DNA of 63,633 nucleotides, filler included, from Trichomonas gallinae (taxonomy: Eukaryota): NCBI GenBank assembly GCA_008369845.1. It is 8 parts of 8 records of this genome, joined end to end, with 100 filler letters (N's around TTAATTAATTAA, not from the genome) between each part and the next. Parts side by side here need not be neighbours in the genome. Positions count along the whole stretch, not along the records: positions 20,613 to 25,745 come from MRSU01000458.1; 7 more parts are not named here. One strand, 5' to 3'. Positions within the stretch are counted from its first letter, which is position 1; the number at the start of each line of letters is the position of its first letter. Both the position numbers and the translations under genes were made by a program. Below are positions 1,351-25,525 of this stretch, one piece after another. Below the pieces are notes generated by a model. The model was not told the origin of the DNA. It searched no databases and saw only the letters and a program-made list of their open reading frames with translations.

Positions 1351-1470
1351 ATCAAAACTGATGAAAATTTTATTAAAAGACTACTCTATATTGCTGTTGA
1401 GATTAAGGCACTTGAAATTGTTCAATATTTTGTTGAACATGGTTCTGTTGTCAACATGAAAATGTTTTGA
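1351..1470 (+). pseudogene. Ankyrin-repeat gene fragment
   Basis: Frame from 1351 reads IKTDENFIKRLLYIAVEIKALEIVQYFVEHGSVVNMKMF*, matching the ankyrin consensus (LHxAaxxgxleivkyLlehGadvN). No start codon precedes the repeat. Confidence 0.65.
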
Positions 1471-1795
1471 ATAATATATGATTGATCATTACAATATTTG
1501 CATAGAGTATATGATTATATATGTGTGCATTATATATCATATCTGATATAATATTAATCAATAAAAATATCATTGATTTTGATGCCATATTAACTGAAAA
1601 TATATTACATCTCTGTAATACAATTGATATATAATGTAAAAAATATAGCAATAGAAAGAAAATCAATCAAAATCAAACTAAACAAGTAAAATTTTGATAT
1701 AAAATTAAACTATATATGATATTTTATCCAAAAACACTAAAAACAAAGAAATAAAAATCAAGGACGATAAGTCGTCCGTTTCTGTAATCATAGGA

Positions 1796-20944: not shown

Positions 20945-21572
20945 TCATTGCTGACTCGATTTTTCAAGATATGAAAAGCTGTGGGTAAGGAAATATTTGT
21001 TATCAGGTTTGGACCAATTCTCATCTTGGTTGAAGTGCTGTTTATATGTTGTTTCATCAATTTTATAACTCTTTGTTCCATTTTTATTTTCAATTTCCTT
21101 CACAACGTCTTTTGCGATCATTCCATATGATTTATGCTTGCACTCATTCCACAGGTGGCCTTTTTCACTGCAGGTTGTACAAAACTTCGAATTTTCCCAA
21201 CTGAACAGCTCACGCCTGTACGGCTCAAAATCTCTTTGAGAATCATATTCATTCACGATATTTTCGATGAAACCAAATTGATCCCTTTGGAATGACATTT
21301 AAAAAAACATATTTATTCAAGATATATCTCAAAGTATTAATTTTATTCATGCTTGACTCTGCAGGCTCTATAATCTGTTGTGATGATAGTGGACATGCTT
21401 TTGTCTCGTGTTTATGATTACCACATTTTGCACAATGTTTTGCAGGCGTATTATACATCATTCTAGTTTTTACCAAGTTACTATACATTTCATCATCAGA
21501 TAAAGAGTCAGGAAAAGTTCACTCTTCGTCAAAACCTGTTTGTTTTACATATCCAAAGTTAATCGCAGACAT
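20945..21572 (-). pseudogene. Disrupted CCHC zinc-knuckle protein gene
   Basis: ATG at 21572 reads MSAINFGYVKQTGFDEE*TFPDSLSDDEMYSN (in-frame TGA). Knuckle 1 is CAKCGNHKHETKAC; knuckle 2, CTTCSEKGHLWNEC, lies in a different frame (ORF 20945-21298). Confidence 0.65.
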
Positions 21573-22285: not shown

Positions 22286-23260
22286 ATGTCGAGTCTGAAA
22301 AATCAACTTGCTTTCCTGATAAAGGTCTCCATGAAGCCTAATAAGAACTGTCCGAACTGCATCATTTTGAACCAGGCAGAGACGATCATTGGGAGGAGGG
22401 GCGAAAATAAAGTTGATACTTCTAAAGGCAAAGAAATTTCTAAAAAACACTCTATGATCACTAGGCATATAAAATACTTCGATTGCTACTTTACAATAGA
22501 TGATTTGCATTCGATAAATGGTACCTTTGTCAATAATAGAAAAATAATACGGCAAGAATTAAACCACCAAGATCGAGTTATCTTCGGTGGTGGTAATCAA
22601 TATTATGTCGGGGATTACCTCAAGAACCCTCAAGAGCCAGAATGCATATTTATGTTTGTATATCCTGAGATTGAAGTTGATTTTTCACAGTGTAAGGACT
22701 TTAATGATGATTTCGAAGAACAGAATGAGAATGAAGAGTGTTGTGTCTGCTTTTCTGCAGCACATCGCATTAAAAAACTCGCTTGCGGACATTTTTGTTG
22801 TATGAACTGCTTAAACAAGTGGCACACAACATGTTCTGAGAAGCTAAAGACATTAACATGCCCCATATGTAGAGCTAAACTTCCTAAAGAAGATATCGGT
22901 CATGATTCAGCTGATATAGTTCATGGTATCCAGATTGTTCGTTCAATTGCCCCTCTTTGCAGAACATTAGGTGTCAAGAACGTTAAAGAGATCCAGGAGT
23001 TGTCGATAACCAAACGATGGACCCTTCAAAAGAAGGAAAAATTCTGGGATCTCCATGAAAAGATCTTCGAATTCCATAATTTGAGGCATTCATTCCATGC
23101 TTTGACCAACTGTTCATTGCAGACAATGATAAAATGCAATGAAATGGAAGCGAGAGCGGTCATCGAAAATCTCGATGGAAACTTGCGAAATCTTCCTAAT
23201 TCTCACTTGAGAGAGGCCATATATCTAACTGCAACGAAAGTAATGCACCTAACAGAATAA
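22286..23260 (+). CDS. FHA + RING-finger E3 ubiquitin ligase (CHFR/RNF8/Dma-like architecture)
   Basis: FHA motifs IIGR, ISKKHS and DDLHSINGTFVN; C3HC4 RING CCVC...CGHFCCMNC...CPICR. Confidence 0.9.
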   Translation: MSSLKNQLAFLIKVSMKPNKNCPNCIILNQAETIIGRRGENKVDTSKGKEISKKHSMITRHIKYFDCYFTIDDLHSINGTFVNNRKIIRQELNHQDRVIFGGGNQYYVGDYLKNPQEPECIFMFVYPEIEVDFSQCKDFNDDFEEQNENEECCVCFSAAHRIKKLACGHFCCMNCLNKWHTTCSEKLKTLTCPICRAKLPKEDIGHDSADIVHGIQIVRSIAPLCRTLGVKNVKEIQELSITKRWTLQKKEKFWDLHEKIFEFHNLRHSFHALTNCSLQTMIKCNEMEARAVIENLDGNLRNLPNSHLREAIYLTATKVMHLTE

Positions 23261-23764
23261 TATTATTTGTTTTCGATATATTATTTTGATATTATTATTA
23301 ATCTTGTTTGTATTATTAAACCACTTTGTGTTTTTAATGTTTCTTTCTATTTAAAAACCCATAATTCTTGGAAAATCTATTACGTAAAGTGTCAAAATGG
23401 CAAATTTTATCAAATTGTAAGTTCCGAATGAAAGATTTTTAAATCGCGTTAGGAATGAATATACTCTGTGATTGTTGTACAACGCAACTATGGGGTTTAG
23501 TGCCTCTATATTGTGCGGTGCAACATGTACAAATCCCATTAATTTTATTAATTGGGTACCATTAGTTAGAAGTCGTGTGACATATAAATTAACGTACATT
23601 TTGACAAGCAAAATTGGGTTTGAGCAATATCTTTATATTAATTCAGATCAGATATCAAGACATATAAACCATTACGGTTTGCTGTTTTACCTCCAACTAT
23701 AGTATTTAAATAATGAAATCTAAATTTGTCACTTTTTAGAAAATTTTGATGTCACTTTTCAGTA

Positions 23765-24252
23765 ATGGGGAATATTGTTGTTAAGATTATTACAACAATG
23801 GCCCTTTTATATGGATTGGGAATTTCGATGTATATTTAATTTCTAACAAACAGAACTCAGTTGTATGGTTTTATTTTCTAATAATCAGTCTTGAATTAGC
23901 AAAAAAAGATTTTTCTCCAAGTTTAACATTGACACTAGAACCAGTGAATAACTTGTTCGGTGCTACTATTAGTTCCTTACTTATCGCGTTCCTTTGTTTC
24001 TATTTAATTACAAATATTTATACTCCTATTGGAATAGATGCTCTATTTCCAATCGAAAGAAGCAGATGGTCTAAATTCGTGTTCAAAATATTCATTGCAG
24101 GATGCAGCTTCTTCTACTGCGGCCTTTATGGTGTAGTAGGTGCTGCAATCCTGTTTTTCGCAGCTTGTCTCGAATTGATCGTTGATTTCAACGCAAAACC
24201 ATCTGAAACTGATATAGATGATACTTTTGATGTTGAATTGGAGAATTTGTGA
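23765..24252 (+). CDS. Small multi-pass membrane protein, spliced: join(23765..23829,23854..23862,23889..24252), 145 aa
   Basis: Removing two GT-AG introns puts ATG 23765 in frame with the TTG-started ORF 23929-24252, giving MGNIVVKIITTMALLYGLGISITQFLELAKKDFSPSLTLTLEPVNN... An Inr-like GTCACTTTT lies just upstream of the ATG. Confidence 0.8.
23830..23853 (+). other. Short spliceosomal intron 1 (24 nt)
   Basis: GTATATTTAATTTCTAACAAACAG: GTA donor, CTAAC branch site close to the CAG acceptor, and an in-frame TAA if retained. Confidence 0.8.
23863..23888 (+). other. Short spliceosomal intron 2 (26 nt)
   Basis: GTATGGTTTTATTTTCTAATAATCAG: GTATG donor, CTAAT branch site at the same spacing to CAG. 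Its removal restores the frame. Confidence 0.8.
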
Positions 24253-24631
24253 ATTCGATATAAATCTTTTGTTTGTTTCTTTAATCAAATATGAAGCCAC
24301 TCAAATATTTACAACAACTAGATATATATTTTCTTCTTTAATTCATCAATTACACAAATATTTAATTTTGAACATTTTAATTTTGATTTGTTTGCTTATT
24401 GAACTATAAAGACTTATAGTATTGTGTAAAAATAACTATATGAACCAAAATAATAGTTGATTACCTATGATATTGATATTTTTCAAATTTTAAACCTTTA
24501 TTGACAATTTTCATTGATGAAATAGTTGCATTATCCTTCATTAACGCATATATATGTTCAAAATAAGAGTGTTCGCATAATAGTATTTAATCTAAACAAA
24601 TATAACAATATAATAGTATAATATAAACAAA

Positions 24632-25525
24632 TTAGAAGAATTTGGATTTTTTCTTCTTGTAGCCATGCTCTTCTTGGTATTTAAGGAAGAGGTCGAATAA
24701 AAATTGCTTGACATTTTTCGGTTTTTCTTTGAGAGTTGAATTTAGTGCGAATTCAACCATCTCTCGAACCTCTTTATGCTCGTTTACGAAATTTTCGGCA
24801 TCTTTTTTATTAATCGATGCATCAACTTTTGCAATGAAAGTTCCAAGTGGAATCAGGAAGAAACTTTTCTGCTTGCCTCTACTACGGTTTCCGATAGTGA
24901 AACCGATGCCTGGTGATAAAGGAGATAAATCATATGATGCAGGTGGGGGAGCGTCTCCATCACCATCAGGATACATCCAAACAGCGTGCCTTTTCGGGCC
25001 TGACATAGTGAATGCAGGAGCTCTACGTTTTACTGGTGTCACTTTATATTTTGGACCAGGACTTGCTGTTTCATCCTTTATTGGTATCTTAATGCCAATA
25101 GTTATTGGTTTGTTTTCAAAACTACTGTGAGTAAAGTAACTTGGCGTGAGGTTTTCGTTTGATGAATAAAAATGTTTTCCATCTCTTACACCGATTGATG
25201 TTTTAACGATTCGAGGGAATATTCTGTTGTTTATGAAGTCTATTTCTGATGTAATCGATCTTTCCTGGTATCTTGGTGTTTCAACAATTTTATGCGGAAT
25301 TCTTGTATCTTTTTCTGATGGCGGAGGATCATAGTCTCCTGGACCTGGCGTTATTTCTATCGGTGGCGGTGGTTTTCTTGGACATCCAATTTCGATTTTT
25401 GGGGTTTCTTTTGTAAAATCTTGTAATTCTTGGTAATATGGTATATCTAGCTTTGTCTCGACATTATGCTTCATTTTTTGGCGGCTGAAGCATGAAGGAG
25501 GACGAGCAACAACTTTGTTGCTCAT
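24632..25525 (-). CDS. SHIPPO/PGP-repeat (ODF3-like) flagellar protein with C-terminal Dpy-30/RIIa-like helix pair
   Basis: Repeats TPGPGDYDP, SPGPKY, APPPASYD with spacers APAFTM and GFTIG. C-terminal VREMVEFALNSTLKEKPKNVKQFLFDLF. Confidence 0.65.
   Translation of the reverse strand: MSNKVVARPPSCFSRQKMKHNVETKLDIPYYQELQDFTKETPKIEIGCPRKPPPPIEITPGPGDYDPPPSEKDTRIPHKIVETPRYQERSITSEIDFINNRIFPRIVKTSIGVRDGKHFYSSNENLTPSYFTHSSFENKPITIGIKIPIKDETASPGPKYKVTPVKRRAPAFTMSGPKRHAVWMYPDGDGDAPPPASYDLSPLSPGIGFTIGNRSRGKQKSFFLIPLGTFIAKVDASINKKDAENFVNEHKEVREMVEFALNSTLKEKPKNVKQFLFDLFLKYQEEHGYKKKKSKFF

What the first reader, a model, noticed from the sequence alone, without database searches (positions are those of the whole stretch)
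23765..24252. Hidden gene with a 9-nt micro-exon between two 24/26-nt introns
Seen: exon 1 (23765-23829), intron GTATATTTAATTTCTAACAAACAG, exon AACTCAGTT, intron GTATGGTTTTATTTTCTAATAATCAG, exon 3. Both introns have a GTA donor and TTCTAAY-N3-CAG with the same branch-to-acceptor spacing. Splicing both links an ATG preceded by an Inr-like motif to an otherwise ATG-less membrane-protein ORF (145 aa); the unspliced frame stops at TAA in intron 1. Established: trichomonads have very few introns, including a class of about 25 nt with a branch site fused to the acceptor. Inference: two such introns 9 nt apart probably cannot be occupied by two spliceosomes at once, implying ordered splicing. Because the micro-exon is 9 nt, skipping it (one 59-nt excision) also keeps the frame and removes three residues, so in-frame alternative splicing is possible in a lineage where it is barely documented.
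Basis: partly seen in the sequence, partly recalled or inferred. Interest (0 to 1): 0.9.

Follow-up and report, generated by a model that had tools for sequence, protein, structure and literature searches.

The report
Nine-base exon between two mini-introns
A small membrane-protein gene of a Trichomonas parasite is split by two 24- and 26-base introns only 9 bases apart, and a likely transcript from a close relative shows both removed with the 9-base exon kept, an internal exon six times shorter than any in the trichomonad intron catalogues I read.

Summary
A contig from an RNA-like run of a close relative (97% identical) reads exon 1, the 9-nt exon and exon 3 with both introns gone. The spliced 145-aa product aligns without a gap over its first 40 residues to T. 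vaginalis TVAGG3_0415840. A distant homologue called on unspliced DNA has a 16-residue insert that back-translates uniquely to a 23-nt intron, a 9-nt exon and a 25-nt intron in the same phase (0 of 1500 shuffles), so the layout is probably old. T. vaginalis seems to have lost both introns. The shortest published trichomonad internal exon I found is 54 nt. The exon-skipping idea is not supported: the micro-exon carries a Gln found in 8 of 8 full-length homologues, sits in predicted helix 1, and no skipped form was seen. Ordered splicing is plausible but untested. The protein is a predicted four-helix membrane protein, weakly TVP15/COPI_assoc-like. The scan's earlier notes held other micro-exon cases, none on this gene or a trichomonad.

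The parts
23729..23756 (+). Two Inr-like TCACT motifs (23729 and 23752), candidate transcription start; the proximal one lies just past an out-of-frame ATG at 23749
   Evidence: Inr consensus recalled, start site not mapped
23765..23829 (+). Exon 1 (coding part, 65 nt): start codon and most of predicted membrane helix 1
   Evidence: ungapped alignment to T. vaginalis TVAGG3_0415840; last 17 nt seen joined to exon 2
23830..23853 (+). Intron 1, 24 nt, phase 2, type B; in-frame TAA if retained
   Evidence: one T shorter than the validated T. vaginalis intron CG15 (PMC13548475 Table 2); absent from the X1 contig
23854..23862 (+). 9-nt micro-exon; supplies Thr23, the conserved Gln24 and parts of codons 22 and 25
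23863..23888 (+). Intron 2, 26 nt, phase 2, type B-like with three departures from the consensus; frameshift if retained
   Evidence: absent from the X1 contig
23889..24252 (+). Exon 3 (364 nt): predicted helices 2-4, acidic tail and stop codon; no in-frame ATG
   Evidence: (364 nt covered, 11 differences, 8 of 10 listed synonymous)
24261..24264 (+). TAAA, candidate UAAA polyadenylation signal 9 nt after the stop
   Evidence: signal described in PMC13548475 passages; 3' end not mapped

Best explanation
This is a three-exon gene of a non-vaginalis Trichomonas whose two mini-introns are both removed with the 9-nt exon kept, as a likely transcript of a close relative shows, giving a 145-residue protein predicted to have four membrane helices. 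Each intron is most likely recognised on its own (intron definition): a short 5' motif plus a branch site fused to the acceptor at a fixed 8 nt. Because only 9 nt separate them, they are inferred to be spliced one after the other, probably the near-consensus intron 1 first; the order is untested. The micro-exon is best read as a constitutive leftover between two old neighbouring intron positions, not as a regulated cassette. Both introns are inferred in a distant parabasalid homologue, one or the other may be present in further homologues, and T. vaginalis probably lost both. Incomplete splicing gives a stop or a frameshift, so it would yield no protein. The protein is possibly a TVP15/COPI_assoc-like Golgi trafficking protein (about 50%).
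For: Shown: (1) A 391-nt contig of run X1 matches 23889-24252 with 11 differences, and its 26-nt loose end equals the last 17 nt of exon 1 exactly plus the 9-nt exon with one A>G. (2) X1 behaves like RNA: listed long pieces stay inside ORFs, depth differs from 0 to about 170 between genes, and most of the first 5 kb of a 7-kb gene is uncovered while its 3' end is covered. (3) The spliced product is 80/145 identical to T. vaginalis TVAGG3_0415840, with no gap in the first 40 columns. (4) Gln at the micro-exon position in 8 of 8 full-length homologues; profile score 168 bits with the exon and 155 without, or 148 against 136 when the T. vaginalis row is left out. (5) The AlphaFold2 model of the T. 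vaginalis protein has four long helices, and helix 2-29 spans the micro-exon residues. (6) Intron 1 is one base from a PCR-validated type B intron. Inferred: (7) Homologue P0023 (about 30% identical) has 16 extra residues there. The only double-intron reading in its first 60 codons with GTATG/TCTAA motifs is 23 + 9 + 25 nt at phase 2; 0 of 1500 shuffles give any such reading, 15 of 1500 with relaxed motifs. (8) TVAGG3_0415840 is not among the 31 annotated multi-exon loci listed in PMC13548475 Table S1 nor in the tables of PMC12316389, which points to an intron-less copy in T. vaginalis.
Against: The transcript evidence is one contig (depth 12.5) from a relative, not from this organism. It has only 17 nt beyond the first junction and 26 nt beyond the second, under the tool's 31-letter rule for a bridging record, and the run's RNA status is a guess on record. 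The RNA-versus-DNA test used a different assembly piece of the window. Contigs drop rare forms, so low-level skipping or retention is not excluded. The P0023 introns come from back-translation and no DNA was seen; P0023 is a long branch (2.14) of unsure place. The single-intron reading of P0005/P0022/P0024 is at the right place, but 855 and 904 of 1500 shuffles give some such reading. Full-length homologues may come from transcript assemblies, so their intron state is unknown. A protein call identical to the T. vaginalis sequence starts only at Met68 (P0002), which could mean an interruption upstream in T. vaginalis after all. The P0005 subfamily has His, not Gln, at the micro-exon position. 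Pfam does not hit COPI_assoc for any of 12 members.
Confidence: 0.85

Rival explanations
1. The 9-nt exon is an alternative cassette: a share of transcripts joins exon 1 to exon 3 in one 59-nt excision and makes a functional 142-aa isoform.
For: The exon is 3n and symmetric (phase 2-2), so skipping keeps the frame. The 9-nt length seems kept in a distant homologue. Contigs cannot exclude rare forms.
Against: Skipping removes a Gln present in 8 of 8 full-length homologues, from predicted helix 1, and lowers all 8 pairwise scores. None of the 8 full-length homologues lacks the three residues. The 59-nt stretch has type B signals at type A length, whereas type B introns are 23-28 nt and long T. 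vaginalis introns fold into stem-loops (PMC6679479 section 8); this one does not fold (-2.7 kcal/mol, 161 of 200 shuffles as good). PMC12316389 reports an absence of potential isoforms.
Confidence: 0.09
2. The window's copy is not spliced efficiently (a silent or decaying gene), and the X1 contig comes from an intron-less genomic copy in a relative.
For: X1 is only guessed to be RNA. Intron 2 departs from the consensus at three places. Intron-less paralogues of intron genes exist in T. vaginalis, and its orthologue seems intron-less.
Against: X1 coverage follows genes and varies over a hundredfold. Exact loss of both introns within 3% divergence would be needed. The window's frame is intact, and 8 of 10 listed differences are synonymous.
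Confidence: 0.04
3. The block is removed by an unusual route (one spliceosome passing over both introns without release, or a recursive path through a skipped or retained intermediate) rather than by two independent ordinary rounds.
For: Two complete introns and an exon fit in 59 nt; steric conflict across micro-exons is discussed in PMC8378409 (passages).
Against: No observation needs it. The same paper finds that micro-exons with unusually short flanking introns need no special factor, and each intron has a full set of ordinary signals.
Confidence: 0.02

Closest known systems
Type B spliceosomal introns of Trichomonas vaginalis and T. stableri (PMC6260720 passages; PMC12316389 text parts 1-4 and S2/S3 Tables; PMC13548475 sections 18, 20, 21)
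   Same: Length 24 and 26 nt within the 23-28 nt range, GTA donor, T-rich middle, TCTAA branch fused to the acceptor; intron 1 is one T shorter than validated intron CG15.
   Different: Intron 2 has TCTAAT, an AATCAG end and G at +5, so the published regular expression misses it. The two introns lie 9 nt apart.
The three two-intron genes of T. stableri (TsBTPI-3_004276, _002403, _017191; PMC12316389 S2 Table)
   Same: Small genes with three exons and two type B introns.
   Different: Their middle exons are 54, 76 and 73 nt, against 9 nt here. None has this gene's exon sizes.
Conserved small micro-exons (15 nt or less) of plants (PMC8831610, abstract and outline) and C. elegans micro-exons with short flanking introns (PMC8378409, passages)
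   Same: A tiny, frame-keeping exon that annotation misses; short flanking introns ease inclusion.
   Different: Those are intron-rich genomes, and the shortest flanking intron named for C. elegans is 49 nt. Here both flanks are about 25 nt, in a genus with 63-84 validated introns per genome.
T. vaginalis hypothetical protein TVAGG3_0415840 (XP_051102987.1)
   Same: Closest named relative, 80/145 identical and colinear across both junctions.
   Different: Not listed as intron-bearing in either catalogue; probably intron-less, DNA not seen.
COPI_assoc / TVP15-like small Golgi membrane proteins (PF08507)
   Same: Size, four predicted helices; the best Atlas cluster (mostly Parabasalia) carries PF08507 on 23% of members, score 0.89 for exon 3 and 0.91 for the T. 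vaginalis protein.
   Different: No Pfam hit to PF08507 in 12 of 12 members scanned; solved-structure matches are generic four-helix bundles. The link of PF08507 to yeast Tvp15 is recalled.

Membership tests
Trichomonas type B intron | Length about 25 nt (23-28) | tested here: met
   24 and 26 nt; range from PMC12316389
Trichomonas type B intron | TCTAA branch fused to the 3' splice site, branch A 7-8 nt from the end | tested here: met
   8 nt in both; rule from PMC6260720 passages
Trichomonas type B intron | Exact published expression GTWYWD N7 TCTAAC H1-2 AACAG | tested here: not met
   Intron 1 matches only with a 6-nt spacer; intron 2 fails. The 2025 paper reports 23-24-nt and variant type B introns, so this lowers only strict membership
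Trichomonas type B intron | Removed from the mRNA at the predicted ends | tested here: met
   One contig of an RNA-like run of a close relative joins the three exons at the predicted bases; not shown in this organism itself
Trichomonas type A intron (for the 59-nt skip excision) | GTAYGT donor and ACTAACACAYAG end | tested here: not met
   Donor GTATAT, end TCTAATAATCAG; consensus; no type A match in the window
Trichomonas type A intron (for the 59-nt skip excision) | Internal stem-loop shortening the splice-site distance | tested here: not met
   z = +0.84, centroid unpaired; feature from PMC6679479
Alternatively spliced (cassette) micro-exon | Length divisible by three, symmetric phase | tested here: met
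   9 nt, phase 2-2
Alternatively spliced (cassette) micro-exon | Skipped form observed in RNA | tested here: inconclusive
   Only the inclusion form seen, in 1 contig; contigs drop rare variants
COPI_assoc (PF08507) / TVP15-like | Match to the Pfam profile | tested here: not met
   0 of 12 members at E up to 1
COPI_assoc (PF08507) / TVP15-like | Small protein with four membrane helices; nearest language-model clusters carry the family | tested here: inconclusive
   Four long helices, pTM 0.67; Atlas 0.89 and 0.91, family on 23% of members
COPI_assoc (PF08507) / TVP15-like | Golgi or COPI-vesicle location | not testable with these tools
   needs tagging and microscopy

The most novel reading that the evidence does not exclude
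The two-mini-intron, 9-nt-exon block is an ancient parabasalid module kept because it is a splicing-controlled switch. Its introns must be removed in a fixed order, and under some conditions the exon is skipped to give a Gln-less isoform, the first exon skipping in a trichomonad. It would be the visible member of a class of micro-exon genes that motif-filtered catalogues miss, possibly in T. vaginalis itself.
Probability: 0.1. Interest if true: 0.85.

Novelty: new variant of a known kind. Interest (0 to 1): 0.55.

Why it matters
Trichomonads have about 60-85 validated introns per genome; two-intron genes were first reported in 2025, with middle exons of 54 nt or more, and a 2026 long-read study confirmed none of its multi-intron candidates in T. 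vaginalis. A 9-nt exon between two 25-nt introns shows that this reduced spliceosome can handle a 59-nt block holding two whole introns. It is a compact natural substrate for asking how close two introns can lie and whether they are removed in order. It also shows that current catalogues are incomplete, because intron 2 fails their motif filter. If the P0023 reading holds, two adjacent intron positions have survived deep parabasalid divergence and were lost together in T. vaginalis, a clean case for studying intron loss. Micro-exons as such are common elsewhere, which limits the general surprise.

Tried and rejected
No whole genome is held for the window, so no genome-wide count of such introns was possible. 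The run search listed no holder on record as RNA; runs X2 and X3 laid nothing, which is no evidence. The word-indexed protein search with exon 3 found no hit among 14 candidates; the full HMMER search found 13. A metagenome scan with the alignment of the P0005 subfamily confirmed 0 of 553 stretches. A metagenome pattern scan for two short introns around 9 nt gave 2 loci; by reading, one is a short tandem repeat in non-coding DNA and one lies in what looks like a bacterial ORF, so both were rejected as chance. No homologue's DNA was therefore obtained. Pfam gave only sub-threshold hydrophobic matches such as His1_capsid. Foldseek had 0 matches at E up to 0.001; the wide structural search gave generic four-helix bundles, best Z 11.5, rmsd 2.8 over 108 residues, under the tool's bar for helical bundles. 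I first read P0002 as a sign of introns in T. vaginalis, then lowered that to about 30%. T. vaginalis intron CG15 is nearly identical to intron 1 but lies in another gene (phase 1, different junction). An alternative donor at 23860 (6-nt exon) appears only in a loose scan and breaks the +4 consensus. A relaxed scan found no other convincing type B intron in the window (3 candidates, 2 of them these introns).

Full report
Observation. Removing both introns gives 145 residues. Keeping intron 1 meets TAA at 23837; keeping intron 2 shifts the frame; skipping the small exon gives 142 residues in frame. Both introns are phase 2 with the branch A 8 nt from the end. A short-intron pattern matches these 2 places only, against 0.017 per window in 60 resamples, and the double pattern matches once, with 0 of 100 shuffles. 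These patterns were written after seeing the locus.

Organism. A kinase elsewhere in the window is 79% identical to a protein whose 90% cluster holds a T. vaginalis G3 kinase, and about 50% to Tritrichomonas and Histomonas kinases. The gene studied here is 55% identical to its T. vaginalis relative. The window is a chain of assembly pieces joined by a spacer, and the kinase lies on another piece than the finding.

Evidence of splicing. The run search listed 3 runs, none on record as an RNA holder. Laid on 23300-24700, X2 and X3 gave nothing. X1 gave a 391-nt contig, depth 12.5, that matches 23889-24252 with 11 differences and has a 26-nt loose end before 23889. By direct comparison, that end is the last 17 nt of exon 1, exactly, followed by the 9-nt exon with one A>G (Thr to Ala, Gln kept). 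So in this relative both introns are absent and the small exon is present, at exactly the predicted bases. Of the 10 differences listed in exon 3, 8 are synonymous. X1 is only guessed to be RNA, so I laid it on 20 kb elsewhere in the window. The long pieces listed stay inside ORFs (8 shown, 74 not shown), depth runs from 0 to about 170 between genes, and a 7-kb gene is covered mainly at its 3' end. That is how a transcriptome behaves. Limits: one contig, from a relative, with fewer than the tool's 31 letters on the short side; contigs cannot show rare forms.

Evidence from homologues. HMMER on exon 3 found 13 proteins; one cluster holds T. vaginalis TVAGG3_0415840, 142 aa. The double-spliced product aligns to it with 80 identities and no gap in the first 40 columns. 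Eight full-length homologues all have Gln where the micro-exon puts it, and all 8 score the inclusion form above the skipped form. A profile built from them, without the window's sequence, gives 168 bits against 155. Homologues left out of that count were truncated calls and those with inserts; the P0005 subfamily has His there. AlphaFold2 on the T. vaginalis protein with 11 aligned sequences (pLDDT 76.6, pTM 0.67) gives long helices at 2-29, 43-69, 84-101 and 104-135, so the micro-exon residues lie in the first helix.

Age of the layout (inferred). P0023, from a 943-nt contig and about 30% identical in exon 3, has 19 residues where T. vaginalis has 3. I asked which pairs of 23-28-nt introns around a 3-30-nt exon are compatible with its first 60 codons. 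With GTATG and TCTAA motifs there is one answer: 23 nt, 9 nt, 25 nt, starting at phase 2 of the matching codon. No shuffle of 1500 gave any answer; with relaxed motifs 15 of 1500 did. This looks like a gene caller reading through two unspliced introns. P0005, P0022 and P0024 have an 8-residue insert that fits a 24-nt intron at the second position only, but more than half of the shuffles allow some single reading, so this is weak. P0004 starts at a Met at the micro-exon position, as expected if only the first intron were present; the T. musculus model starts downstream of both. In the tree P0023 is a long branch of unsure place and never groups with the window's protein, whose nearest row is T. 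vaginalis (94/90, not starred). I could not obtain DNA for any of these. TVAGG3_0415840 is not in the intron tables of PMC12316389 and not among the 31 annotated multi-exon loci of PMC13548475 Table S1, so the T. vaginalis copy is probably intron-less (about 70%). Against this, a call identical to it starts only at Met68 (P0002). Supplements of PMC13548475 numbered below 4 and all figures were not visible and may bear on this.

Mechanism. Shown: the three exons are joined with the small exon included. Inferred: each intron carries the full type B signal set and is defined on its own. Intron 1 is one T shorter than the validated T. vaginalis intron CG15; intron 2 departs at three places. With 9 nt between them, two spliceosomes probably cannot be active at once, so removal is likely sequential, intron 1 probably first as it is upstream and nearer the consensus. 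This rests on recalled spliceosome footprints and on the steric discussion in PMC8378409 (passages), which also reports that very short flanking introns free micro-exons from needing PRP-40. No intermediate was seen. The 3n intron has an in-frame stop, as is common for 3n short introns in ciliates (PMC5014332, passages). Skipping would need a 59-nt excision with type B signals at type A length. Long T. vaginalis introns fold back (PMC6679479 section 8) and this stretch does not. The product would lose the conserved Gln. I put a functional skipped isoform at about 9%.

Protein. It is a predicted four-helix membrane protein with an acidic tail. The Atlas places exon 3 (0.89) and the T. vaginalis protein (0.91) nearest a mostly parabasalid cluster with PF08507 COPI_assoc on 23% of members. 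Pfam does not confirm this in 12 members, and structure searches give generic bundles. A TVP15-like Golgi trafficking role is a lead at about 50%; a search listing on that family added nothing.

Comparison with print. PMC12316389 (parts 1-4 of 7, S2 and S3 Tables read) reports 63 single-intron genes in T. vaginalis and 81 intron genes in T. stableri, three with two type B introns and middle exons of 54, 76 and 73 nt. PMC13548475 (passages, sections 18, 20, 21, Table S1) confirmed none of its multi-intron candidates. Histomonas genes have at most one intron (PMC8529796, passages); 5.66% of T. musculus genes have introns (PMC11978803, passages); T. foetus introns are unvalidated (PMC13735942, passages). 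PMC6260720 and PMC12289875 were seen as passages, PMC8831610 as abstract and outline. Searches for Trichomonas with microexon (3 papers) or micro-exon (1 paper), and the wider searches, listed no paper whose title or abstract start concerns a trichomonad micro-exon; I saw those as listings only, and most subscription journals are not held. Earlier scan notes showed micro-exon cases in other genomes, none in this genome or on this protein, and did not change my reading.

Verdict. A real, unannotated-type three-exon gene with a constitutively included 9-nt exon, probably an old arrangement. It is a new variant of known type B introns, useful as a test substrate, without support for alternative splicing. 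Interest 0.55.

Noticed in passing
whole window: The window is a chain of assembly pieces joined at seven places by runs of N around the 12-base all-frame stop spacer TTAATTAATTAA. Neighbours across these joins need not be neighbours in the genome; the finding lies on a piece of about 5 kb.
   Followed up: partly
window 20945-21488 (- strand): Two overlapping zinc-knuckle-like ORFs (21249-21488 and 20945-21298) in different frames meet near a T-rich run; a frameshift, assembly slip or decayed gene. No type B intron joins them.
   Followed up: partly
window 1360-1480: A lone ankyrin-repeat-like fragment (motif recalled) in an intergenic stretch attracts many X1 contigs (bin depth about 2440, many loose ends), probably from a large paralogue family.
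   Followed up: partly
window 23727-23760: The Inr-like motif is part of a short direct repeat present twice; a start at the upstream copy would put an out-of-frame ATG (23749, 11 codons) before the main ATG.
   Followed up: no
P0025 (T. musculus M9Y10_003920), P0006, P0015-P0020: Several homologues are called from a Met downstream of both intron positions and lack helix 1, which suggests unannotated short introns there.
   Followed up: no
P0002 and P0014: A 75-aa call identical to residues 68-142 of the T. vaginalis protein sits on a 4488-nt contig, and the full protein has only 2022-era accessions; the exon structure of TVAGG3_0415840 is worth checking.
   Followed up: partly
window 22286-23260 (+) and 24632-25525 (-): The flanking genes are an FHA plus RING-finger protein and a protein with a weak SHIPPO-repeat match; no link to the finding.
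   Followed up: no
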